Shown: positions 1-16,965 of the stretch, piece by piece
Layout of the letters: each line of letters begins with the position of its first letter
Position numbering within the stretch: position 1 is the first letter of the stretch
Virus record (IMG/VR): IMGVR_UViG_2548876701_000026
DNA: 17,205 bases
From: a virus
Taxonomy: Duplodnaviria > Heunggongvirae > Uroviricota > Caudoviricetes
Strand: one strand, 5' to 3'
Notes under the pieces: generated by a model
Database searches by the model: none
The model's input: the letters and a program-made list of their open reading frames with translations, nothing else
Told to the model about the DNA's origin: nothing
Translations under genes and position numbers: made by a program

Positions 1-201
1 TTAAGACTCCAGTTTCGCAAAGGCTCGACGTAACTGATTATTCAAATCACGGTCGACCAGCATCGCTATCAGCTCGTCTCGACTGTAGTAAGGGCGATCA
101 GGGTTATCGACTCCAAGTCTCAGCAGGGACAGGAGGTGACGGGTAGGCAGACCACGGTAGCGGAGAGTTGCACGACCAATAGGTGTGCGCGGGTCAATCA
201 T
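1..201 (-). CDS. hypothetical small protein (66 aa), translationally coupled to the upstream Rha-like gene
   Basis: Complete ORF: stop codon at 1-3, start at 201, overlapping the stop of the 203-931 gene. No recognisable motif. Confidence 0.45.
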   Translation of the reverse strand: MIDPRTPIGRATLRYRGLPTRHLLSLLRLGVDNPDRPYYSRDELIAMLVDRDLNNQLRRAFAKLES

Positions 202-202
202 C

Positions 203-931
203 TTAGAGTCCCTCCAGCTTGCCGGATTGGGCTTGCTTCAGGAGATGCTCTTGCTTCTGCTGGTCGGTGCCAGTGAAGGCAATAAGGATGCCTCGCAGTT
301 TATCGACTATCGCAGGCTTACCGAAGACCTCCAATCCCTTAGCGTTGAAGCGAAAGTTATAACCACCTGCTGAGAACTTCTGGTCTGACGGCTTAATGAT
401 ACGGAAGCAGTCGGAATACTTTGGATTTACAGACCACTCGTTACTGATTGGGTTCTTACGAAAGAGACCACGATGCTGAAGAAGTGCGGTCATTAGCTTC
501 TGAGCGGGTAGACCATAGGTTTTGCAGTAGTCGCCCCAAGTCACGCCTCGGCGGTTAGCGGACTGAATGGCTGCTCGCTTCTTCTGGTCTTCCAGTTGAA
601 GGACTCGACGCTCTAACGTCTGAATATGGTCGTAACACTTGGCGCGGAGGTGAACGGAATAGCCAGCGACCAGAATGAAAGTATGCTTACGGTCGAGACG
701 GTACAGAGGCTGCTGTTTCCCCTGCGCGTTTAGATAGACATCTTCAGTCACCCCGATATGACTGCTCAGTTTTGAGCACTGCTCAGTTTTGAGCGCGTTA
801 AGCTCCTCAGCCATATTGCGAATATCACGTAGGACATTTCGGTGCTCCTTGCCTGTCAGCTCAGCAATTTCAACTGAGGTCATGGAGACAAGCTGGTCGA
901 GGTTAATGACGCTGATTTCTTGTTGAGACAT
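203..931 (-). CDS. Rha-family phage regulatory protein with antirepressor (KilAC-like) C-terminal region
   Basis: N-terminal segment SVEIAELTGKEHRNVLRDIRNM matches the Rha-family signature as I remember it. AAGGAG-like RBS upstream of the ATG at 931. 242 aa. Confidence 0.7.
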   Translation of the reverse strand: MSQQEISVINLDQLVSMTSVEIAELTGKEHRNVLRDIRNMAEELNALKTEQCSKLSSHIGVTEDVYLNAQGKQQPLYRLDRKHTFILVAGYSVHLRAKCYDHIQTLERRVLQLEDQKKRAAIQSANRRGVTWGDYCKTYGLPAQKLMTALLQHRGLFRKNPISNEWSVNPKYSDCFRIIKPSDQKFSAGGYNFRFNAKGLEVFGKPAIVDKLRGILIAFTGTDQQKQEHLLKQAQSGKLEGL

Positions 932-1233
932 TTACGTGTACTCCTTTTGTTTGCACCCTGAAGTCGCACCCCCACTGACCTACTCAAGCCCCCACGTAAA
1001 GGGAGACCAGCAGGCAACAGGACGCAAACAGAATGACTTGAGGTAATTGGGGTTAGTGGTCTGCGATGACCATAGAGATGAAGGTTCGACAGCATGTCCG
1101 AGCGTGTGTGGTGATAGACTTAAGTCACGAGACCAAAGAACACAAAGGCTGACCAGAGGCTGGTGGCTAGCAAGCTAGCGTGGACCACGGTTTCTCGCTT
1201 GCCGTCTCTCAGGAGGTCAGAGGCGAGATATGG

Positions 1234-1255
1234 TCCCTATAGTGATAGTTTAGTC
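1234..1255 (-). promoter_or_regulatory. T7-class single-subunit RNA polymerase promoter-like element (copy 1), predicted start near 1237 reading leftward into the Rha gene
   Basis: Minus strand reads GACTAAACTATCACTATAGGGA; the core TCACTATAGGGA equals the -8..+4 core of the T7 consensus TAATACGACTCACTATAGGGAGA. Exact 21-nt direct repeat of 1793-1813. Confidence 0.5.
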
Positions 1256-1587
1256 AAACAGGAATGAACTTCGGAGAACCTGACGCGAAAGTGTTCAGTA
1301 CTTCCAGTTAGACCCGAAGTATGGAGAACCACATCATAGCGACCGTAGTATACTTCGGGCTGACAGGACTGGAGGCTGGACTTAAAGTTCTTCTTATTGG
1401 AATTGTGATAACACAATCCATAACAAGATGAACTCATGGTCTCCTCAAGCCTGCTGGTCAGGCTCAAAGCTCCAACCTCAGACACCACTGGTCTAACCTT
1501 TTTGAGTTTCCGCCTGTCCACAAATGGATGGCAGACCTCAGCAATGATGTCTTGGTTCTTCACAATCTCGCACACCGATGGTCGCAT
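1237..1587 (-). CDS. hypothetical protein (116 aa by ORF track; alternative start at 1437 with GAGGAG RBS gives 66 aa)
   Basis: ORF lies between promoter-like copies 2 and 1. Weak RBS at 1587, better RBS before the internal ATG at 1437. No motif recognised; could be spurious. Confidence 0.2.
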   Translation of the reverse strand: MRPSVCEIVKNQDIIAEVCHPFVDRRKLKKVRPVVSEVGALSLTSRLEETMSSSCYGLCYHNSNKKNFKSSLQSCQPEVYYGRYDVVLHTSGLTGSTEHFRVRFSEVHSCLTKLSL

Positions 1588-1790
1588 AGACGGATACTTC
1601 CGCTGCGGTCTGATGTTCTCCGCCTGTCAAAGGAGAGAGATTGCTACGTTAAAGGGAATGGTCTCAGGCCAAGGTGATTTAACACTAGGCTTATTGCGGA
1701 TGGTTTCCAATCGGTCCGCTACCGGAAGCCTGAGACTTAATGAATGTGTGGGTCGGTGGCTGTATTAAGCCCGGGGGGACTTAGGGTCTC

Positions 1791-1813
1791 TCCCCTATAG
1801 TGATAGTTTAGTC
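1791..1813 (-). promoter_or_regulatory. T7-class promoter-like element (copy 2), predicted start near 1795
   Basis: Minus strand reads GACTAAACTATCACTATAGGGGAGAGACC. Identical 21-mer to copy 1, and GGGGAGAGACC resembles the T7 initiating region GGGAGACC. Confidence 0.5.
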
Positions 1814-1820
1814 CCCCCCC
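1813..1820. repeat. C8/G8 homopolymer tract between promoter-like copies 3 and 2
   Basis: cccccccc at 1813-1820, read directly. Confidence 0.9.
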
Positions 1821-1839
1821 TTCCCCTATAGTGTGGGTT

Positions 1840-1840
<1 letters not shown>
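1821..1840 (-). promoter_or_regulatory. T7/SP6/K11-class promoter-like element (copy 3, divergent upstream half), immediately after the stop of the 1840-2499 gene
   Basis: Minus strand reads AAACCCACACTATAGGGGAA; CACACTATAGGG core. Confidence 0.35.
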
Positions 1841-4099
<2,259 letters not shown>

Positions 4100-4340
4100 G
4101 TACTGAGACCTTAGGTCTGCTCACTACTTCAACAAAGTTAGTCACAGTGTTGGTTACAGTGAGTAAAACTATCGGAAGGCTTTAAGCCGTATCCCTTAGG
4201 ATTCAGTAAGTTAGTAGACTTTAAGAATGGTCATGGAGCGGGCGAAGGGAATCGAGGAAACCCATAATAACCTGCTGTAAAATAAAGATTTTGTGATCAA
4301 TCATAGGTAACTGATTACGTGATAATAGAGGATCATTATC

Positions 4341-5561
4341 GTGTCGATCAAGAGCCAAGCATACTTATTTAAGAGAAAAGATGGGATCTGGATGTTTCAG
4401 ATTTTTGTTCCTAAATACTTACGTCATCTTTACCCTTACAAGTTGTGGAGAAAAAGCACATCTACACGAGATCTGAATGAGGCGAGAAGATTCAGAAACC
4501 ATCTATTATTAGAATGGGAGGAACTAAAGCGGAAACATAATCCTGATAACCCCGAAAGGAGGTTACAACAAGCTATTGAATCCTTACATTCAGAGGCAAG
4601 GGCCAATAAAAACACGCAAAGAGCCGTAAAACGCGGTTATGCATCGCCTTCCCTATGCTTAATACGTGACGAATACGCCGAATGCTACAGAGAGCGTCGT
4701 TCATACTCAACACTACAGAAATCAGCAAGGGCCGTTGAGCTATTTTTACAAAGCATTCAGAAAGATGATATTCATATTGAGAAAATAGGCAGACGGCTTG
4801 TAACAGTATTCTTAGATGACCAGAAGCAACGAGGAGCAGCCGATCAATCTCGTCAAAACTGGCTTACATGCTTAGGATCGCTCTATGAATTTGCTAAACG
4901 CCGTTATGACGGAATACCAGACAGTAACCCTTTTCACGGTCATAATCTCGAAGCACGTCGCACAATCGAGAGTTATCAACCGTTTACACCTGAACAAATG
5001 CAAAAGCTACTTGATGCAGCGGAGCCGGAGATCAGAAATATTATTTTAATGGGCTTGTTTTCAGGATGCAGATTAGACGAACTGGCAAGTCTGAAAAAGT
5101 CAGAGGTTGTAACTGTGGAAGGAATACGCTGTTTTTATATCAGCAAAAGTAAGACTAAAGCAGGGATCAGGCACGTTCCGATACATTCGAGACTATCGAT
5201 TATTGTCGATGAATATTTAAATCATAATTATGGTGAATATTTGTTCCCTCACTCGAACAAAGTAAAAAGAATCGACGGTAAGAAAGGCCCGTTCTATTCT
5301 CAAGCGTTCTCACGTTTACGTCGTAGCGTCTTGCCAATCGCTACAAATAGACAATGCTTTCACAGCTTGCGCGGGATGTTTATCACTTGTCTTGATCGTG
5401 CCGGAGTGCCTGAACAGCGGATCGGTGCCATTACCGGACATACAGAGCAGAGAGCTAAAACAGAAGCCTTTCGCACCTACTCACAAGGGGCAAGCATTCC
5501 AGAATTAGCTGAATATGTAGAATTAGTAAGATATGAATTAAATATTGATTTTAAGGCTTAA
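4341..5561 (+). CDS. int: tyrosine site-specific recombinase / phage integrase (406 aa, GTG start)
   Basis: R in GCRLDELASL, H-x-x-R in HSLRGMFITCL, GHTEQ...AFRTYSQ with the Tyr. N-terminus YLFKRKDGIWMFQIFVP parallels the other integrase. AGAGGA RBS 8 nt upstream of GTG. Confidence 0.85.
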   Translation: MSIKSQAYLFKRKDGIWMFQIFVPKYLRHLYPYKLWRKSTSTRDLNEARRFRNHLLLEWEELKRKHNPDNPERRLQQAIESLHSEARANKNTQRAVKRGYASPSLCLIRDEYAECYRERRSYSTLQKSARAVELFLQSIQKDDIHIEKIGRRLVTVFLDDQKQRGAADQSRQNWLTCLGSLYEFAKRRYDGIPDSNPFHGHNLEARRTIESYQPFTPEQMQKLLDAAEPEIRNIILMGLFSGCRLDELASLKKSEVVTVEGIRCFYISKSKTKAGIRHVPIHSRLSIIVDEYLNHNYGEYLFPHSNKVKRIDGKKGPFYSQAFSRLRRSVLPIATNRQCFHSLRGMFITCLDRAGVPEQRIGAITGHTEQRAKTEAFRTYSQGASIPELAEYVELVRYELNIDFKA

Positions 5562-5668: not shown

Positions 5669-7510
5669 TTAACTTGGTGCTTGCCCAGACAGAGCCGCCA
5701 ACGTGAAACTACGTTCAAAATCTTGTTGGATACTTCCCACTTTGTAATCGAGGTATGATCCAAGCTGACTACCATCAGGAGCGATATTCACATCAACCTT
5801 ACTTTCTGGCACGTTTACGACAATGCTTGGCGCATACGTCATAGATGGGGTAGTGTTCAGATCACGGCTAACGTTCTCTTTCAGGGATTGCACGTTATCG
5901 GACGGGCTTGAATAGTTCTGAATTGCAGTTCCGCCAGTCGTTGGCTTGTCTTCCGTGCCAGGGATAGGCGATAAGCCTAAAGCACTACGACCCCAATCAA
6001 CCATGCCGCCTACAAACGAATCCTTATAATACATACCGGACGAATCAAGGTTTTCATGTTTGTTCTCTGGATTTATATTCTGGTATGCAGCAGTAAGCCA
6101 CGATACAGCACCAGCAAAGGCGCTCATCATTTCAGCCGTTGAGCTTCCAAGTTCTTTAAACAGAGGATTGAGATCTTTCAACATTTGCGCCCACTCTTCA
6201 CCAGCCTGAGCGTCGAACTCTTCACCGAATCCCGTCATGATAGCTTTCTTACTACCTTCCCAGGCCATATTCATATTAGCCTGTACAGCTTGCAGACGTT
6301 CAGCAGCGTCAAGATCCGCTTGCGTATAGGTGGCATTGGCTTTTTGCATCTTAACGATGGTTTTATTTAGCTCTTCACCGTTACGACTGAAAGCACCACG
6401 GAAATATTGTAAATCATTTCCAAGGTCTTCAAGGATGTGACCCTGCTCCTGATCAGAGAGTCCACGGCGTTCTCCTTCTTTCACTACAGCGCCCAGGAAA
6501 CCTAATGGATCAGTCTGGAAACCTTTAATCTGTTCAGGACTCCAACCATATTTATTAAGGATGTTATCGACGGCACCATTACCGCCAGCCCAGCGACCTT
6601 TCTTAGCGTCCCATTTGGTATTCCCTACGGATTCACCTAAACGCTCTTGAACGTCTTTAAGGTTGTCTTGACGTTGGTCTACGGAACTATCGACACCGTG
6701 TTCTAAGCCGTACTGATTAAGTGCTAACAGGGCGTTAGTGTTTACGTTGACAGCCTTTGCCTTGCGGTTAGTGTCTGTGATCTTGCTTGCCTGATCGGTT
6801 ACGGTATTGAATATCGCAGCACCGCCGAGAGTGGCAGCAGTGAGAGCGGCACCGCCCACCATTGCACCTACACCACCGCCTATATGACCGCCTTTAAGCT
6901 GTTTAGCCATATGTGGATATTTACCGCCATCAGCCGCCACCTGGCGAGCTTTTACAGCAGCCGCACGGCGTTCTAACGTGATACGATCACGGATCAGGTG
7001 ATTCATCTTAGCCTGACTAATAGCGCCTTTCTCATACGCTGCCGTTTGTGCTTTGATGTATTGCAACGTTTTGTAGTATTGGGCGGAGTCCATACCGTCG
7101 CCCATACGCCCTTTCTTAATCCCTTCAAGCTGTCTGAAAGCTTGCTGGCGCTTAATCTCTGCTTTCTCTGCTATTGTCGCTTTAGCGCGGATCTGTTTAT
7201 CGGCAGCTATAGCGGCTTTAGCCTTCGCTTTAGCTTCTGCCTTTGCCACCTTATCAGCGTTCTTCTTATCGGTTTGAGCTTGCTTGTCTGACGCTTTGGC
7301 ATCAGTTTTAGCCTGTGCAGCTTTACGAGCCTTTACCAGATCATGAGCCTCGTCTATAGCTCGTTTAGCCTTCTTCCCTTTCAATGTTGGATTGGTTAGG
7401 TTTTCCATTTCTTTCTGAAATTTCTTCCCTGCGTCCCTTGCTTTCTGTAATGATGCAAAATCAACTTTAAATACAACCTTGTTTGTTAAGGTTGAGATGT
7501 TTAAATCCAT
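5669..7510 (-). CDS. large coiled-coil / glycine-zipper protein, tape-measure-like virion protein (613 aa)
   Basis: Lys/Ala/Glu-rich heptad-like N-terminal third (KVAKAEAKAKAKAAIAADKQIRAKA), hydrophobic Gly-zipper GGHIGGGVGAMVGGAALTAATLGGAAIF, long low-complexity C-terminus. AAGGA RBS upstream. Product assignment by composition only. Confidence 0.45.
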   Translation of the reverse strand: MDLNISTLTNKVVFKVDFASLQKARDAGKKFQKEMENLTNPTLKGKKAKRAIDEAHDLVKARKAAQAKTDAKASDKQAQTDKKNADKVAKAEAKAKAKAAIAADKQIRAKATIAEKAEIKRQQAFRQLEGIKKGRMGDGMDSAQYYKTLQYIKAQTAAYEKGAISQAKMNHLIRDRITLERRAAAVKARQVAADGGKYPHMAKQLKGGHIGGGVGAMVGGAALTAATLGGAAIFNTVTDQASKITDTNRKAKAVNVNTNALLALNQYGLEHGVDSSVDQRQDNLKDVQERLGESVGNTKWDAKKGRWAGGNGAVDNILNKYGWSPEQIKGFQTDPLGFLGAVVKEGERRGLSDQEQGHILEDLGNDLQYFRGAFSRNGEELNKTIVKMQKANATYTQADLDAAERLQAVQANMNMAWEGSKKAIMTGFGEEFDAQAGEEWAQMLKDLNPLFKELGSSTAEMMSAFAGAVSWLTAAYQNINPENKHENLDSSGMYYKDSFVGGMVDWGRSALGLSPIPGTEDKPTTGGTAIQNYSSPSDNVQSLKENVSRDLNTTPSMTYAPSIVVNVPESKVDVNIAPDGSQLGSYLDYKVGSIQQDFERSFTLAALSGQAPS

Positions 7511-7526
7511 AATATTTTCCTTTACC

Positions 7527-7562
7527 TTTTATTTGTTTTGTTTTGTTTTGTTTTGTTTTGTT
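7527..7562. repeat. pentanucleotide simple-sequence repeat (TTTTG)n on plus = (CAAAA)n on minus, about 6 units
   Basis: tttg followed by five perfect ttttg units at 7536-7560, read directly. Encodes the C-terminal KQNKTKQNK of the HTH gene and sits 18 nt upstream of the 613-aa start. Confidence 0.9.
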
Positions 7563-7735
7563 ACGTAGTATTGCACTGCTTCCATAGCTGAGCAGCCAGT
7601 AGTGAAGATTCTTTGACGTACAGCAGTATTAGAGATCCCTAAAAACTTACACACTTGAGAGATATTCAGAATATCTTCCGGTAAGGTGGAAACAGCTTTC
7701 AGGATCTCAACTGGATTGTTGTTTTGTTCGCTCAT
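7529..7735 (-). CDS. small helix-turn-helix DNA-binding protein (AlpA/excisionase-like), 68 aa from the ATG at 7735 (ORF track extends to 7786)
   Basis: ILNISQVCKFLGISNTAVRQRI is a classic HTH. The N-terminal 17 codons of the 7786 start overlap the upstream terminator hairpin, so the internal Met (MSEQ) is preferred. C-terminus is encoded by the (CAAAA)n repeat. Confidence 0.5.
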   Translation of the reverse strand: MSEQNNNPVEILKAVSTLPEDILNISQVCKFLGISNTAVRQRIFTTGCSAMEAVQYYVTKQNKTKQNK

Positions 7736-7778
7736 GATTTTTCTCTCACAATATTTTAATAGACGGTATAAACGAAAA

Positions 7779-7839
7779 AAGGGCAAAAGAGATTGTTTAC
7801 TGTATTTGCGCTACAGGTTTAATAATCCCTTTTGCCCTT
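7779..7839 (-). terminator. intrinsic terminator after the capsid-like gene (long-loop hairpin plus U6 on the minus transcript)
   Basis: aagggcaaaag (7779-7789) and cttttgccctt (7829-7839) are perfect inverted repeats; aaaaaa at 7773-7778 gives UUUUUU 3' of the stem on the minus strand. The 39-nt loop contains an inner ctgta/tacag hairpin. Confidence 0.4.
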
Positions 7840-7888
7840 ATTGCCTGTTTTATTTCCAGTCGCACAGGAAACGACTATTAACGCTTTA

Positions 7889-8917
7889 TTACGCTACTGT
7901 GATCTGTACAGTGAAGCCTACGCCGTGGTTTACAACCATCTGGCTATTCTCAGTAACTACGTTTACAGCGTCGTTACGTGCTGGGCTAAACGCATAGCTG
8001 TAATATTCAGCCGCGCCAGAATTCAGCAGGTCGAACGTTGAAGAAGGAGCGCCGAAAATGTTCTGATAGACGTTAGAGCCTTTAGCGAACTTCGGAACAG
8101 CAACCGCATCAGAAGTCATATGAGCCAGCAGCAGCGGATCAGTAACTTTAACGATATCGATGTTAGTCCCAGGAATAGTGAAGGTAGTCACACCTGGCAG
8201 CAGGGAGCGCACGCTATAAACGATGTTTGCGTCATCGGTAGGGCTTGCATACTGGAACGCGTTAACCATGCCAGCACTGTAACGGATAGCGTTGAAAGCA
8301 GCAGGTTTACAGAATACAACGATACGTTCTACAGCAGCCGCCTGGCTTTGTGCTTTAGTAATAACGTCTGTATGCATCTGATCGAATTGCTGGAACACCA
8401 TAGAAGGCGTGGTGCTTGATGCGTCGATGGTTGCAGTCATCGGAACAACACTAAACAGATCGCCCCACTGGATCAGCACATCATCAGTTTTAGGGGTGTA
8501 AGTGCGACCAGAGAACAGGGAAGCAGCCAGCACGCTTTCTTTAGTACGCTGGAAAGCAATGTGGTGCTTAGCAACATATTCCGCGTAGATATCTGTCAGA
8601 GTTTCTTCAACGGTAGCGCCTGGTTTACGTTTGCCTTGCACGTCTTGCGGCTTAATCATATCTTCACGCAGGAAGTAGGGGATCTCTACTAAAAATTCTT
8701 TACCCTGTTCACGTTTAGTCACGTTATGTTCAGAAGAGAAACGAGAGGTTTCTTTGTTGAACAGAGATTCGTTAGTTTCCACCAGTTGGCTAACAGCCAC
8801 TTTATGAGAACTCACACCTACCGGATCAGTAAAGTCGAGAGAAGTTAACAGGAAGTTGCGAGAGTCGTGCAGACTAAACAGCGGAGCCAGATCGACGGAT
8901 TCATTACCAATAATCAT
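7889..8917 (-). CDS. putative major capsid protein, lambda gpE-like (342 aa)
   Basis: Size and synteny (about 120-aa decoration-like gene immediately upstream, terminator downstream). Loose colinear resemblance to lambda gpE as I recall it (segments IAFQRTKESVLAASLFSGRTYT and ERIVVFCKPAAFNAIRYS). AAAGGAA RBS. Not verified by search. Confidence 0.45.
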   Translation of the reverse strand: MIIGNESVDLAPLFSLHDSRNFLLTSLDFTDPVGVSSHKVAVSQLVETNESLFNKETSRFSSEHNVTKREQGKEFLVEIPYFLREDMIKPQDVQGKRKPGATVEETLTDIYAEYVAKHHIAFQRTKESVLAASLFSGRTYTPKTDDVLIQWGDLFSVVPMTATIDASSTTPSMVFQQFDQMHTDVITKAQSQAAAVERIVVFCKPAAFNAIRYSAGMVNAFQYASPTDDANIVYSVRSLLPGVTTFTIPGTNIDIVKVTDPLLLAHMTSDAVAVPKFAKGSNVYQNIFGAPSSTFDLLNSGAAEYYSYAFSPARNDAVNVVTENSQMVVNHGVGFTVQITVA

Positions 8918-12158: not shown

Positions 12159-12824
12159 TTAAAATGGTATTGAGTCATAGATTTCACTTTCTTTTCTCAG
12201 GGCTATCATCAGTGCATTAAAAGCATCATCTTCAAGAATTATCCTCTTCGAGGTCAGTGCACGTTTTATAAAATTTTCTGTTTCTTCTTGCATAGGCTTT
12301 TGGCTGTCTATGGAAATAAGCCATGTAAAAAGATCAGATTGTTCCGTGATTTCTGCCTGTGTTTCCTGCTCAATAGAGTGTGTCGCTTCTAACGGTTCCT
12401 GTGTTTCAGGTGCAGGCTGTTCTACGTTTACAGAGGTTTTTACGTCTTCCGGTGGTGTGATGTGTGCATCTGTAAAGGGTAATGCTTTATAGAGTGATGT
12501 TTGCCCGTCCCGTGCCTCTACAGAAAGAACACCCATATCAATAAACATATTTATAATATTACGCACCTGACGATCACTAACCATTCCAATATTAGCTAAT
12601 GTTTTTTGATTGGCGTAACATTCTTGCCCTTGTTCATTGAACCCAGCTACGTAACTGTAGATTTCAACGGCTGGAAGTGTCGCGGTGTATTCCTTACCTG
12701 ACGGTGAGAACCACTTTTTAAACATCTTCAGCCATTGTTCAACTACTACATATGTTTGTTTACTATCTTTCTTATTGAGGCATTGCGCTTTTGCTTCGGC
12801 AATTGTTTTGGTGTTTTGGTTCAT
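12159..12824 (-). CDS. winged-helix DNA-binding protein resembling phage/plasmid replication initiator or replisome-organizer N-terminal domains (221 aa)
   Basis: Segment YSYVAGFNEQGQECYANQKTLANIGMVSDRQVRNIINMFIDMGVL fits the pattern (Y..N...G.CY.SQ.TLA...G.S...V.R.I..L...G.I) seen in Rep/replisome-organizer HTH domains; acidic linker follows. AAAGGAGG RBS. Confidence 0.5.
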   Translation of the reverse strand: MNQNTKTIAEAKAQCLNKKDSKQTYVVVEQWLKMFKKWFSPSGKEYTATLPAVEIYSYVAGFNEQGQECYANQKTLANIGMVSDRQVRNIINMFIDMGVLSVEARDGQTSLYKALPFTDAHITPPEDVKTSVNVEQPAPETQEPLEATHSIEQETQAEITEQSDLFTWLISIDSQKPMQEETENFIKRALTSKRIILEDDAFNALMIALRKESEIYDSIPF

Positions 12825-13154: not shown

Positions 13155-13769
13155 AAAAAACTCCTTATTTAGATAAAAGAAAAACACACCTTGCAGCCTG
13201 ACGGCTCAAAGTGCAGTGTTCTGTGATTTGATTATTTAGATGGAGAGAGATGTTTCTCCCCTCCCTACTTACAATACTACATAACGGCGGCTTTGTCAAC
13301 CCTCTCTTATAAAAAACTTGATCATTTTCAATTTCTTATAATTTTTCTTAGCTTTTTGTGCTGCCTACTCTGGTACAATTCTTCCCTGTTGCCTAAAACG
13401 CTCTCAATCGCACTCTGACGGGGGTTTTGATAAAAACAATACATTCCCTTATGTAGAGGTTGTTTATCTCGTCAGAGGCTTATTTAAGGGGCTTATTTTT
13501 GATTTATCAGATGATGGAAAGATGGTGGATAGATAAACTCTGATTTCAGACATCTTATAAAATACCTGTAAAGCTCCTCAGAAGCTCTATAACGAGCTAA
13601 TCTATTACCGCTAAGTGTTTCCCTACCTTATATACGTTTAGCTCGCCTACGGCTTGATTTAAGCGGTAGAAACTTATTTAACCTTCAACTACTAAAACCA
13701 TTCTTTCTTTTTTGTTTGTTGTTGGTTGTTGTCTGTGTCTATGTGCTAACATCGCTAACGCGTAGCACA

Positions 13770-14035
13770 CAAGGTTATTGCACTCGTCAGAGTATTGCAC
13801 AATAGATTTTCTCTTAAATAGATTGATGATCGTTAGATTGGCGTAAGCCTCATCAATGGAACTATTGAAGCGCACAGCGCATAGACACTAACAACCATTC
13901 GCTTACGCTCAGGTTATTGCACAAGTAAATTTCAATCGTTAGATGGTAGTTAGTTAATTATCGTTCTGCGCACAGCGCAAGACTATTAGCCATACGCAAG
14001 CCGTAGGCTATTTGCACATAGTAGATTACATATTC
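13770..14035. repeat. degenerate tandem repeats of about 100 bp carrying recurring TTGCACA, CGTTAGAT and CGCACAGCGCA motifs
   Basis: cgcacagcgca at 13871-13881 and 13969-13979; cgttagat at 13831 and 13937; aggttattgcac at 13772 and 13911. Confidence 0.5.
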
Positions 14036-14918
14036 GTTGTGAGCGGAAAGCGAACATAGATCAGCTAACTACTAACAAAAAACAAAAAACAAAAACTATC
14101 TGTTATGACAAGCATCAGTCTAACTTGTGCAAGGTTCTGGCGAATGCCAATAGATTAAGGGATAGTCGAAGACTCCCTAACGGGTATCCCTATAATTATT
14201 CTTTAAAAGATAAAAGAATTTATAAAAGATAGTTTAATTGTAGTTTAATTATAGTATTGTAGGAACTCATTTCCTGGGTAGGTAGGAAACCCGCACTATA
14301 CGGTAAAAAGTGCTTGCATGTCAACTTATATTATGTTAATTGCGGCTTTAGATCGTCTAAGTGATTGTTAAAAGTAACTTTTAAAGTTAACAATTGATCA
14401 ATCAAACTTAAAAATTCCCGGCTTTAGAAAAGCATAAGTATTGTGCACACTGGTAAGTGTCTTGCACAGAAAAAGGTGTAAAAAATGTCTAAAGCCCTTT
14501 AGATAAAAATGATACCTTTATACATGCGCTAATAGCGCGCATAACAATAACCTACTAACAACTAACTAAAAAGTAAGAAGATGTTGTTATGATTAGTGTA
14601 TCGCTCAACGCTCACATCTATCTCTGATCTATAAATTGGTAACTGTCTAACAACAACAAACAACTATTACATGCAAAACAGCCTTACGGCTGCATAGAGA
14701 TGATTGGCTAACCTTCGGTTGCTACGCATAGCCATATCTATGAGAAGATAAAAGAGATTTAAAGGTTAGTTTGTTGTTGATCTAACTAACATTCGCTATA
14801 CGCTCATACAATCTACATTACACATTAACTATCAAACTACAATCTAACGATATATAGAATCTATATCCACTCATTATCATTCGTGCAATGATCACATTGA
14901 TAGTTCGCTATACGCTCA
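13898..14918 (+). repeat. four same-orientation iteron-like direct repeats TCGCT-N2/3-ACGCTCA; candidate origin or recombinase-binding region
   Basis: Copies at 13898-13911, 14601-14614, 14792-14806 and 14904-14918, inside a 2.25-kb AT-rich region with no credible ORF. Confidence 0.5.
14074..14094. repeat. (AACAAAA)3 heptanucleotide tandem repeat
   Basis: Read directly. Confidence 0.85.
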
Positions 14919-15440
14919 CCTCTATTATGTGCAATGGCTTTTCAGGCAACGCGTTAGCGTATTCTTGCGAATGCCTGATCTCCAAAGCCGGAATTAAACA
15001 GCAAGAATATCTCGTGTAAATCATAGAATATTCATAGTTTATCCCTATGTAATTCCATACTAAAAATTCAATGAAAAGTAGCTTAAAAGAGCAATGTTAG
15101 CTTTCTTCACTTTTACATTATCATCAGCAAAGCCTTATGTAATGCGGCATATAGCGCATCACTGCAAAATTGTTGCTCAATAAACGTTCTATCATTTATT
15201 GAACAAGTTTCCTTTAATGCAACAAAAAATTATTTTTTCAAAATAAACACACTATTTAATAGCTTGCTAATTTTACCAAAATGTAACTACATGATTCTCA
15301 TGCAAGACGTGTAGTGATAAAGCAGGCTAAATCACCACACTAAAAACCTTCGAATTTCGTAGTGAAAAAAGTCCTTTACACACCTAATCAACACGATCAA
15401 TAATCACTACACACAAATCAACACAGAAGGAATAAAGAAA

Positions 15441-15992
15441 ATGGCTAATATTGGATACATTAGGGTATCGACTGTGCAACAAAACACAGACCGTCAATTA
15501 GCTGGAGTAGCTCTTGATAAAGTCTTTGAAGATAAAGCGTCAGGCAAGAATACCCAGCGCCCACAGTTTGAGGCAATGATGAACTATGTGCGGGAAGGTG
15601 ATGTTTTGCATGTTCACAGTATTGATCGACTTTGCCGTAATACAGCCGACCTACTGGCAACGGTTGAGCAATTAACAGAGCGCGGCGTGTCTGTGCATTT
15701 CCATAAAGAAGACTTTAAGACAGGGAAGAACTCTCCCGCAGGGAATATGATGCTCACAGTGCTTGCAGCAGTGGCACAAATGGAACGTGAAATGATGCTT
15801 GAGCGCCAGCGTGAGGGGATCGCCGCAGCTAAGGCCGCTGGACGTATAGCAAAACGTGGTAATGGAAAAGCAATTGATCGAGCGGGAATTGCTGCCGCTC
15901 TCGCGAATGGTGGATCAATTCGGAGCGTAGCAAAAGATTTCAGTGTCAGCACACAAACGGTGCAACGTATCAAGAAAGAGCAGGAAGCGTAA
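15441..15992 (+). CDS. small serine recombinase of the resolvase/invertase family (183 aa)
   Basis: N-terminus MANIGYIRVSTVQQNTDRQ with the catalytic Ser in the GY(I/A)RVS-T motif; DRLCRN; C-terminal HTH GSIRSVAKDFSVSTQTVQRI. Compares well with Hin/Gin/TnpR as I recall them. AAGGA RBS. Confidence 0.85.
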   Translation: MANIGYIRVSTVQQNTDRQLAGVALDKVFEDKASGKNTQRPQFEAMMNYVREGDVLHVHSIDRLCRNTADLLATVEQLTERGVSVHFHKEDFKTGKNSPAGNMMLTVLAAVAQMEREMMLERQREGIAAAKAAGRIAKRGNGKAIDRAGIAAALANGGSIRSVAKDFSVSTQTVQRIKKEQEA

Positions 15993-16644: not shown

Positions 16645-16965
16645 ATGCGCAAAAGTTTAATGCTGTTACTTGCTTCAACATTGATTATTTCTGGATGTGC
16701 AACAAAAAAACAACTCGTTCCAACTGGTGGAAGCAAATCAGACGGCACAGTTAGGATGAGTTATTCTTACGGTATGTTTGAAAGTCCTGTTGTAGATCCA
16801 CAACAAGGCATGAATGCAGCCAAAGCGCGTTGTGCCGCTTGGGGATATTCAGGAGCCGAGCCTTTTGGTGGATTCACTTCTCAATGTTCACAACCTTCTT
16901 CATCTGGTTGTATGCAAACACTTGTGACTATCGAATATCAATGCACTGGCGATATTAAGAAGTAA
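16645..16965 (+). CDS. lipoprotein (106 aa)
   Basis: Signal peptide with lipobox LIISGC (Cys at residue 18), followed by a Cys-containing mature domain. Confidence 0.65.
   Translation: MRKSLMLLLASTLIISGCATKKQLVPTGGSKSDGTVRMSYSYGMFESPVVDPQQGMNAAKARCAAWGYSGAEPFGGFTSQCSQPSSSGCMQTLVTIEYQCTGDIKK

What the first reader, a model, noticed from the sequence alone, without database searches (positions are those of the whole stretch)
7508..7565. (CAAAA)n pentanucleotide repeat encoding the C-terminus of the HTH regulator, 18 nt upstream and in frame with the 613-aa gene
A five-unit perfect pentamer repeat (plus one partial unit) forms the last codons KQNKTKQNK of the HTH gene. The stop TAA at 7529-7531 and the ATG at 7508-7510 are in the same frame, so stop readthrough would fuse the two proteins. 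Gain or loss of one unit shifts the frame by 5 nt and changes the regulator's tail and the spacing to the downstream RBS. This is the classic architecture of slipped-strand phase variation, here sitting inside a mobile element.
Basis: seen in the sequence. Interest (0 to 1): 0.6.

Follow-up and report, generated by a model that had tools for sequence, protein, structure and literature searches.

The report
Length-variable 5-base repeat at gene end
A perfect five-base repeat at the very end of a small DNA-binding gene in an E. coli mobile island really does change length between otherwise identical strains (2 to 10 units), but it only alters the protein's tail and stop-codon position, so it looks like a young unstable microsatellite, not a proven on/off switch.

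Summary
Window 7532-7562 holds (ACAAA)x6 on the minus strand. It forms the last 10 codons of a 68-aa helix-turn-helix gene. Its TAA lies 18 nt upstream of, and in frame with, the ATG of a 613-aa tape-measure-like gene. The window is an E. coli O26:H11-type STEC chromosome, and the genes lie in a 13.5-kb island integrated at tRNA-Gly.

The predicted variability is real. Among 5,426 complete E. coli genomes, 32 carry the perfect tract with identical flanks and n = 3 to 9. Exact-protein look-ups find every allele from n = 2 to 10 in public assemblies.

The "classic phase variation" reading is only partly supported:
- Relatives at 87-89% identity carry an imperfect, fixed-length TCAAAACAGAATAAA that encodes the same conserved ...KQNK* end.
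- The repeat arose in one sublineage through two synonymous changes and one conservative change.
- Every allele with n >= 3 keeps the conserved 63-aa protein.
- Slippage only appends one of three tails and moves the stop to 18 nt before, 11 nt before, or 44 nt past the downstream ATG.
- No allele fuses the two proteins, and no fused homologue exists.
- All three frames are common.

My best reading is a near-neutral hypermutable microsatellite that might modulate translational coupling. This has not been tested.

The parts
7532..7562 (-). Perfect pentanucleotide microsatellite, (ACAAA)x6 in the reading register (TTTGT on the + strand). It encodes TKQNKTKQNK.
   Evidence: TRF reports period 5, 6.2 copies, 100% matches. 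Sequence read. Copy number is 2-10 in otherwise identical E. coli sequences.
7529..7735 (-). 68-aa small helix-turn-helix protein gene (PGAP WP_024220413.1, hypothetical). The conserved core is 63 aa and ends in KQNK.
   Evidence: ORF list and PGAP annotation. There are 11-17 synonymous versus 4-5 non-synonymous codon differences to relatives. Sub-threshold HTH family matches fall at residues 23-44. There is remote similarity to multi-module NUMOD-like proteins. AF2 gives a 4-helix model with pLDDT 76.
7529..7531 (-). TAA stop used when n mod 3 = 0 (n = 3, 6, 9). It lies 18 nt upstream of the downstream ATG and in frame with it.
   Evidence: PGAP ends the CDS here in the n = 3, 6 and 9 genomes.
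7522..7524 (-). TAA stop used when n mod 3 = 1 (n = 4, 7, 10; tail ...TNKR). It lies inside the Shine-Dalgarno region, 11 nt upstream of the ATG.
   Evidence: PGAP ends the CDS here in the n = 4 and 7 genomes.
7467..7469 (-). TAA stop used when n mod 3 = 2 (n = 2, 5, 8; tail ...QIKGKGKYYGFKHLNLNKQGCI). The HTH ORF then overlaps the 613-aa ORF by 44 nt.
   Evidence: PGAP ends the CDS here in the n = 5 and 8 genomes. The n = 2 allele was checked in DNA.
7511..7528 (-). 18-nt spacer AAGGTAAAGGAAAATATT carrying the Shine-Dalgarno sequence (AAGGA, 7 nt from the ATG) of the 613-aa gene. It is the same in all alleles.
   Evidence: Sequence. Identical 3' flank in all n alleles. Predicted unstructured together with the repeat.
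5669..7510 (-). 613-aa tape-measure-like protein gene immediately downstream.
   Evidence: PHROG 16051 'tail length tape measure' E 8e-65. It is 30% identical, E 1e-58, to gp254 of Phapecoctavirus anhysbys, which sits in the canonical tape-measure position.
7889..8917 (-). 342-aa major capsid protein gene upstream of the HTH gene.
   Evidence: Pfam Phage_cap_E E 7.6e-12. PGAP calls it 'major capsid protein'. It is 24-26% identical over its full length to Phapecoctavirus, Klebsiella and Pseudomonas myovirus capsid proteins.
4341..5561 (+). Tyrosine integrase of the island.
   Evidence: Pfam Phage_integrase and DUF6538. PGAP annotation.
4234..4255 (.). Left attachment repeat of the island: a 22-nt copy of the 3' end of tRNA-Gly. 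The right copy lies about 520 nt beyond the window end.
   Evidence: Direct repeat family D2 in L001, 7635-7656 and 21125-21146. The latter is the 3' end of the annotated tRNA-Gly.

Best explanation
The tract is a young, lineage-specific coding microsatellite. The ancestral last codons of a small HTH gene, V-[S/A]-K-Q-N-K-stop (TCAAAACAGAATAAA), became a perfect (ACAAA)3 in one sublineage of the island. This took two synonymous changes (CAG>CAA, AAT>AAC) and one conservative change.

Once perfect, the tract slips during replication. By my own recall of the literature, 5-nt loops are poorly corrected by E. coli mismatch repair. The tract has drifted to 2-10 units, mostly in STEC O26-type strains.

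The tract sits after the conserved 63-aa protein, and all three frames hit a stop within 66 nt. Slippage is therefore tolerated. It appends one of three tail types and places the upstream stop 18 nt before, 11 nt before, or 44 nt after the ATG of the tape-measure-like gene. It does not switch either gene on or off and never fuses them.

The likely functional outcome is small. At most it would change the DNA-binding protein's basic tail and the translational coupling or occlusion of the downstream start.

Shown: the tract, its polymorphism, its origin, and the predicted ORF ends. Inferred: the slippage mechanism, near-neutrality, and any coupling effect.
For: - In 5,426 complete genomes the 401-nt query spans 386, 391, 396, 401, 406, 411 or 416 nt. 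The only differences are multiples of 5.
- Sequences read directly show n = 3, 4, 5, 6, 7, 8 and 9 with identical flanks. The 4-kb surroundings are otherwise about 100% identical.
- Contig counts for each exact protein allele are n=2: 7, n=3: 541, n=4: >=1000 (capped), n=5: 607, n=6: 759, n=7: 248, n=8: 31, n=9: 15, n=10: 9, n=11: none. The distribution is unimodal with no 3-periodicity.
- All listed relatives at 87-89% identity (28 of the 32 in that band) span the length of a 3-unit tract, and the four that were read carry an imperfect tract.
- The KQNK end is conserved and the gene is under purifying selection.
- A control repeat, (AACAAAA)x3 at 14074, shows no length change in the same genomes.
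- Two assemblies of strain 97-3250, and the pair 96_1414B/P, agree in n. The rate is therefore high on an evolutionary scale but not extreme.
Against:
- True phase-variable loci also show all frames in populations.
- In about 20% of contigs (n mod 3 = 2), upstream ribosomes must run through the Shine-Dalgarno sequence and ATG of the tape-measure-like gene. That could have a real effect on expression.
- Perfect pentanucleotide tracts are very rare in E. coli, and K-12 has none (PMC7015867). Persistence of this one could reflect selection.
- No read-level, expression or phenotype data were available.
Confidence: 0.68

Rival explanations
1. The tract is an adaptive contingency locus. Its length stochastically sets one of three states: stop 18 nt upstream, stop in the Shine-Dalgarno region, or a 44-nt overlap. 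These states would tune translation of the tape-measure-like gene, or the DNA affinity of the HTH protein through its lysine-rich tail. The result would be heterogeneity in how the island behaves, for example towards a helper phage.
For: - The polymorphism is real, with all three frames common.
- The tract abuts the ribosome binding site of the next gene, and the whole repeat plus Shine-Dalgarno region is predicted unstructured.
- The frame-2 alleles overlap the downstream start by 44 nt.
- Pentanucleotide repeats are otherwise absent from E. coli K-12 (PMC7015867).
Against: - The tract is at the extreme 3' end, and the conserved 63-aa product is kept for n >= 3.
- The repeat exists in only one sublineage. 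The 32 relatives with an imperfect tract function at a fixed length.
- The frame-1 and frame-2 tails are just out-of-frame readings of the Shine-Dalgarno region and N-terminal coding sequence.
- No independent emergence was seen elsewhere.
- No 3-periodicity appears in allele frequencies.
Confidence: 0.2
2. Stop-codon readthrough or ribosomal frameshifting on the A-rich tract produces an HTH-613 fusion or a G/GT-like chaperone pair, as happens upstream of tape-measure genes in tailed phages.
For: - The stop and the downstream ATG are in frame with no intervening stop.
- The gene sits where phages place the frameshifting tail assembly chaperone, directly upstream of the tape-measure gene.
Against: - No fused or longer homologue exists. 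All family members are 54-97 aa.
- The HTH protein has no similarity to the Phapecoctavirus chaperone.
- The tract has no XXXYYYZ slippery heptamer (read from the sequence).
- The shifted frames end after 4 or 22 residues.
- TAA is the strongest E. coli stop codon (general knowledge).
Confidence: 0.02
3. The length differences are sequencing or assembly errors in a low-complexity tract.
For: Simple repeats are error-prone for some long-read platforms.
Against: - The differences are always whole 5-nt units.
- Alleles recur in tens to more than a thousand independent assemblies from several sources.
- Independent assemblies of the same strain agree.
- A neighbouring control repeat is invariant.
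Confidence: 0.02

Closest known systems
Simple-sequence-repeat contingency loci (for example tetranucleotide repeats in Haemophilus influenzae LPS genes, the CTCTT pentamer in Neisseria opa genes, repeat-bearing mod genes of phasevarions; PMC2651432, PMC5909438)
   Same: A perfect short-unit tract inside a coding sequence. The unit length is not divisible by 3, so each slip changes the frame. Copy number differs among close relatives.
   Different: In those loci the tract lies near the 5' end or in the promoter and switches the gene ON/OFF. They occur in species rich in such loci and are conserved as repeats across lineages. Here the tract forms the last codons, the conserved protein is untouched, the repeat is a recent novelty of one sublineage, and E. 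coli is a species with almost no such tracts.
VNTR loci used for MLVA typing of EHEC O157, O26 and O111 (Izumiya 2010 and PulseNet schemes, as tabulated in PMC10062581)
   Same: A short tandem repeat in STEC accessory DNA whose copy number differs between closely related isolates. It appears stable within a strain and variable between clones.
   Different: None of the 40 primers of those schemes, EH26-7 included, matches the 22-kb locus. This tract is therefore not one of the standard typing loci.
Translationally coupled or overlapping gene pairs, and the phage tail-assembly-chaperone (G/GT) frameshift upstream of tape-measure genes
   Same: A small ORF ends at or across the ribosome binding site of a tape-measure-like gene, so the position of upstream termination could affect downstream initiation.
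   Different: There is no homology to chaperones and no slippery heptamer. The shift is genetic (DNA slippage), not translational, and the shifted products are only 4 or 22 residues longer.
NUMOD-type helix-turn-helix modules of homing endonucleases and multi-module phage DNA-binding proteins (Pfam PF22083, I-HmuI NUMOD-like)
   Same: Residues 20-63 align with the repeated ~40-aa modules of such proteins. The match includes a C-terminal ...GCS..EAV.YYVKKQ..K end.
   Different: The window protein itself does not reach any Pfam threshold. It is a single stand-alone module found only in E. coli islands.

Membership tests
SSR-mediated phase-variable (contingency) locus | Perfect tract of short units, long enough to slip, with a unit length not divisible by 3 | tested here: met
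   (ACAAA)x6, 100% perfect.
SSR-mediated phase-variable (contingency) locus | Tract length polymorphic among closely related strains | tested here: met
   n = 3-9 in 32 complete genomes with identical flanks. n = 2-10 in public assemblies.
SSR-mediated phase-variable (contingency) locus | Tract placed so that a unit change switches expression ON/OFF (5' or mid coding region, or promoter spacer) | tested here: not met
   The tract forms the last codons. The conserved 63-aa product is retained for n >= 3, the Shine-Dalgarno-to-ATG spacing of the next gene is unchanged, and all frames stop within 66 nt.
SSR-mediated phase-variable (contingency) locus | Reversible, high-frequency switching within a clonal population, with a phenotype | not testable with these tools
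   No reads or cultures were available. The only hint is that two assemblies of 97-3250, and the pair 96_1414B/P, have the same n.
Published EHEC MLVA/VNTR typing loci (Izumiya 2010 and PulseNet) | Locus amplified by the published primer pairs | tested here: not met
   The 40 primers from PMC10062581 S5 Table give no credible match in the 22-kb L001.
Neutral microsatellite / VNTR | Whole-unit copy-number variation, a unimodal allele spectrum, instability only once the tract is perfect, and no frame preference | tested here: met
   Allele counts from n = 2 to 10 are unimodal. Imperfect relatives have a fixed length. A shorter control repeat is invariant. Neutrality itself is inferred, not shown.
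Helix-turn-helix DNA-binding protein (NUMOD-like module) | Significant match to an HTH family model or fold | tested here: inconclusive
   No Pfam hit at E <= 0.01. Six HTH families match at E 0.07-0.19, all on residues 18-44. phmmer gives E 5e-23 to multi-module proteins that hit PF22083. The AF2 model has 4 helices, but Foldseek against the PDB finds nothing at E < 1.
Tail assembly chaperone G/GT programmed frameshift | Chaperone homology, a slippery heptamer, and a long -1 frame extension | tested here: not met
   No similarity to the Phapecoctavirus chaperone. The tract has no XXXYYYZ motif. The shifted frames add only 4 or 22 residues.
Phage satellite / phage-inducible chromosomal island (for the surrounding 13.5-kb element) | Integrase with att sites, own replication module, genes that exploit a helper phage, small size, and helper-dependent packaging | tested here: inconclusive
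   Integrase, tRNA-Gly att repeats and a 13.5-kb size are present. There are weak replication-initiator matches. Capsid and tape-measure homologues of Phapecoctavirus-like myoviruses are present. Mobilisation is untestable here, and no such satellite was found in the literature searched.

The most novel reading that the evidence does not exclude
The pentanucleotide tract could be a true contingency switch of a previously undescribed phage-satellite-like island. By moving the stop of the HTH gene across the ribosome binding site and start of the island's tape-measure gene, or by changing the regulator's basic tail, it would create subpopulations that differ in tape-measure dosage or island regulation during helper-phage infection. 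That would be SSR phase variation in E. coli, a species thought to largely lack it, acting by translational coupling and not by ON/OFF frameshift.
Probability: 0.12. Interest if true: 0.65.

Novelty: new member of a known kind. Interest (0 to 1): 0.38.

Why it matters
E. coli is the textbook example of a bacterium with almost no long simple-sequence repeats. K-12 has no pentanucleotide repeat at all (PMC7015867). This locus documents how a hypermutable tract is born: a few silent substitutions in a conserved C-terminal KQNK motif, followed by expansion to 2-10 units in a clinically important STEC lineage.

There are two practical consequences. The tract is an unexploited high-resolution typing marker for O26-type strains. 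It also causes annotation to split one gene into at least nine 'different' proteins.

If the stop-position shifts do affect the adjacent tape-measure-like gene, this would be an unusual 3'-end, coupling-based form of phase variation inside a putative phage satellite.

Tried and rejected
- MLVA identity. I suspected the tract might be the O26-specific MLVA locus EH26-7. The original paper is not held. The primers from PMC10062581 S5 Table, and all other scheme primers, do not match the locus, so I rejected this.
- Fusion or readthrough. I rejected this because no long homologue exists.
- G/GT-type frameshift. I rejected this.
- Fold search of the AF2 model against the PDB gave nothing significant. 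phmmer against PDB sequences gave only weak LysM and Lrp HTH hits.
- Rfam found no RNA family in the window.
- The promoter/terminator scan found nothing between the two genes.
- I searched for independent repeat evolution in distant relatives. The genome-contig scan with the 613-aa protein found none. The viral contigs pattern scan found none. The metagenome scan found two contigs, both n = 3. Distant-mode blastn against E. coli found no additional divergent junctions.
- Megablast of the 4-kb region against the phage collection gave no match.
That allele therefore rests on the exact-protein look-up only.
- Literature searches for a Phapecoctavirus-type satellite found nothing relevant.
Full report
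**1. What is in the sequence.**
All the relevant genes are on the minus strand. TRF finds a perfect period-5 array at window 7532-7562 (6.2 copies, 100% matches). Read on the minus strand it is GTA (ACAAA)x6 TAA.

The tract encodes the last ten codons (TKQNKTKQNK) of a 68-aa ORF at 7529-7735. PGAP annotates that ORF as hypothetical protein WP_024220413.1. The TAA at 7531-7529 is followed by an 18-nt spacer, AAGGTAAAGGAAAATATT, that holds a good Shine-Dalgarno sequence. Next comes the ATG at 7510-7508 of a 613-aa ORF (5669-7510).

A run of 26 consecutive period-5 matches is far beyond chance. The maximum in 300 Markov-1 simulations of the window was 11, and the analytic expectation is 6e-12.

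**2. Where it lies.**
The window is 100% identical to the chromosomes of E. coli 97-3250 and O26:H11 strain FWSEC0001. A 22-nt direct repeat equal to the 3' end of tRNA-Gly flanks a 13.5-kb island. The left copy is at window 4234-4255 and the right copy lies just beyond the window end.

The island carries these genes:
- a tyrosine integrase at 4341-5561;
- the 613-aa gene;
- the small HTH gene;
- a lambda-gpE-type major capsid protein at 7889-8917;
- several small ORFs;
- a weak replication-initiator homologue at 12159-12824.

The 613-aa protein is a tape-measure homologue. It matches PHROG 16051 at E 8e-65. It is 30% identical (E 1e-58) to gp254 of Phapecoctavirus anhysbys, which occupies the canonical tape-measure position after the tail assembly chaperone. 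The capsid protein's best phage relatives are the same group of large myoviruses. 'Inside a mobile element' is therefore correct.

**3. The small protein.**
It is a real gene. Against relatives at 87-89% DNA identity it shows 11-17 synonymous but only 4-5 non-synonymous codon differences.

It reaches no Pfam threshold. Its six best sub-threshold matches that are HTH families (Sigma70_r4_2, HTH_8, HTH_17, HTH_23, HTH_29, HTH_24) all fall on residues 18-44. PHROGs gives a weak excisionase match.

A full HMMER scan of 1.8 billion representatives finds only E. coli orthologues plus remote proteins built from 4-7 copies of a ~40-aa module. Those proteins hit the I-HmuI NUMOD-like domain. One of them ends ...GCSLQEAVEYYVKKQHNK, very like ...GCSAMEAVQYYVTKQNK here.

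AlphaFold gives four helices at pLDDT 76. Foldseek finds nothing significant in the PDB. 'HTH DNA-binding protein' is reasonable. 'Regulator' is not shown. The family is confined to E. coli.

**4. Is the repeat number variable? Yes.**
A 401-nt query across the junction hits 64 of 5,426 complete E. coli genomes.

Thirty-two hits differ from the window only by gaps. Their spans are 386, 391, 396, 401, 406, 411 or 416 nt, which always differ by multiples of five. I fetched one genome of each class and read the tract. It shows n = 3, 4, 5, 6, 7, 8 and 9 with identical flanks. Counts in complete genomes are below.

| n | 3 | 4 | 5 | 6 | 7 | 8 | 9 |
|---|---|---|---|---|---|---|---|
| complete genomes | 9 | 8 | 5 | 4 | 2 | 3 | 1 |

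The surrounding 4 kb is otherwise essentially 100% identical, so the tract mutates far faster than the surrounding sequence acquires point substitutions.

I then built the predicted protein for each n and looked each one up by exact sequence among about 15 billion proteins. Every allele from n = 2 to n = 10 exists. The n = 2 allele was confirmed in DNA.

| n | 2 | 3 | 4 | 5 | 6 | 7 | 8 | 9 | 10 | 11 |
|---|---|---|---|---|---|---|---|---|---|---|
| contigs | 7 | 541 | >=1000 (capped) | 607 | 759 | 248 | 31 | 15 | 9 | absent |

Several results argue against an artefact:
- the changes are always whole units;
- each allele recurs in many independent assemblies;
- two assemblies of strain 97-3250 agree;
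- a neighbouring (AACAAAA)x3 repeat shows no length change in the same genomes.

**5. Origin of the repeat.**
The other 32 genomes carry the junction at 87-89% identity. The 28 of them listed all span the length of three units. The four I read encode V-S/A-K-Q-N-K-stop from an imperfect TCAAAACAGAATAAA or GCAAAACAAAATAAA. Protein variants in the databases likewise end V[STAL]KQNK.

The perfect (ACAAA)3 therefore arose in one sublineage by two synonymous changes (CAG>CAA, AAT>AAC) and one conservative first-codon change. Only perfect tracts vary in length. This is the usual picture of microsatellite birth followed by length-dependent slippage.

I found no independent emergence of a repeat at this junction in species-representative genomes, IMG/VR, metagenomes or other E. 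coli.

**6. Consequences of slippage.**
Translation of the synthetic alleles and PGAP's own annotations agree.

| n mod 3 | C-terminal tail | Position of the stop |
|---|---|---|
| 0 | ...V(TKQNK)k | TAA 18 nt before the downstream ATG |
| 1 | ...TNKR | TAA at 7524-7522, inside the Shine-Dalgarno region, 11 nt before the ATG |
| 2 | a 22-residue extension (...QIKGKGKYYGFKHLNLNKQGCI) | TAA at 7469-7467, 44 nt inside the 613-aa ORF |

For every n >= 3 the conserved 63-aa protein, including KQNK, is intact. The Shine-Dalgarno-to-ATG spacing of the downstream gene never changes. No n fuses the two ORFs.

No fused homologue exists in any database searched. All family members are 54-97 aa.

The repeat plus Shine-Dalgarno region is predicted to be unstructured RNA. 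The tract therefore cannot act as an ON/OFF switch. What it can change is the basic tail of the DNA-binding protein, and whether ribosomes finishing the upstream ORF terminate before, at, or beyond the start of the tape-measure gene.

All three frame classes are common: roughly 1,315, at least 1,257 and 645 contigs. None is strongly counter-selected. These counts are confounded by clonal sampling.

**7. Interpretation.**
The best-supported explanation (about 0.68) is a recently born, hypermutable but functionally mild microsatellite. It is tolerated because it lies after the conserved protein and all frames terminate quickly. By my own recall of the literature, not tested here, E. coli mismatch repair handles 5-nt loops poorly. 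That would explain the instability without invoking selection.

The adaptive version (about 0.2) proposes a contingency locus that tunes translational coupling or the regulator's tail. It is not excluded, but it lacks any positive evidence beyond the tract's position. Readthrough or frameshift fusion, and sequencing artefact, are each about 0.02.

**8. Comparison with known systems.**
The tract works like a simple-sequence contingency repeat at the DNA level. It fails the defining architectural feature, which is placement that switches expression (see the membership table).

It behaves like the VNTRs used for EHEC MLVA. However, none of the 40 primers of the Izumiya and PulseNet schemes, including the O26-specific EH26-7, matches the locus. 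It is not one of those loci.

It is unusual for the species. A review states that E. coli K-12 has no pentanucleotide repeats and at most four units of any tetranucleotide (PMC7015867).

**9. Verdict.**
I class it as a new member of a known kind, a coding 3'-end microsatellite or VNTR. Interest is moderate to low (0.38). It could rise if the stop-position classes are shown to change tape-measure expression or island behaviour.

Noticed in passing
window 4234 to beyond 17205 (L001 7635-21146): The 13.5-kb tRNA-Gly island encodes its own major capsid protein (7889-8917) and a tape-measure homologue (5669-7510). The closest phage relatives of both are Phapecoctavirus (rV5-like) and related large myoviruses, at 24-31% identity. 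The island also has an integrase and a replication-initiator-like gene, but no terminase, portal or tail genes. It looks like a phage-satellite-like element that supplies capsid- and tail-length-determining proteins. I found no description of such a satellite.
   Followed up: partly
window 14259-14304 (L001 17660-17705): There is a perfect tandem duplication of the 23-mer GTAGGAACTCATTTCCTGGGTAG in the ORF-free, AT-rich stretch (about 13200-15440, 34-39% GC) near the replication-like gene. In several more distant island relatives the matching span is 28-127 nt longer and split into 2-3 BLAST pieces. This suggests a copy-number-variable iteron-like array, possibly an origin.
   Followed up: no
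window 14074-14095: There is a second A-rich simple repeat, (AACAAAA)x3.1. Unlike the pentamer, it shows no length change among the O26-type genomes.
   Followed up: yes
window 7736-7888: The 153-nt gap between the capsid gene and the HTH gene contains a long imperfect hairpin (AAGGGCAAAAG ... CTTTTGCCCTTTTTTCG) followed by a T-run. It could be a terminator or attenuator separating the capsid gene from the HTH/tape-measure pair. The simple terminator scan did not flag it, and I only read it by eye.
   Followed up: no
window 203-4099: Left of the island's att site lies a separate gene set: a 535-aa tyrosine integrase, a DUF4145 protein and a Rha-family regulator. Upstream of the window there is an IS66 element. 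This is another mobile element or remnant inserted in tandem at the same tRNA-Gly hotspot.
   Followed up: no
window 15441-15992 and 16645-16965: The island's right-hand part carries a 183-aa serine recombinase (invertase/resolvase-like) and a YecR-family lipoprotein as apparent cargo.
   Followed up: no
window 7529-7735 and its orthologues in public databases: Because of the repeat, one gene appears in RefSeq as at least seven different WP_ accessions, and in public collections as nine exact 'proteins' of 63-92 aa. Some are annotated as overlapping the next gene.
   Followed up: yes
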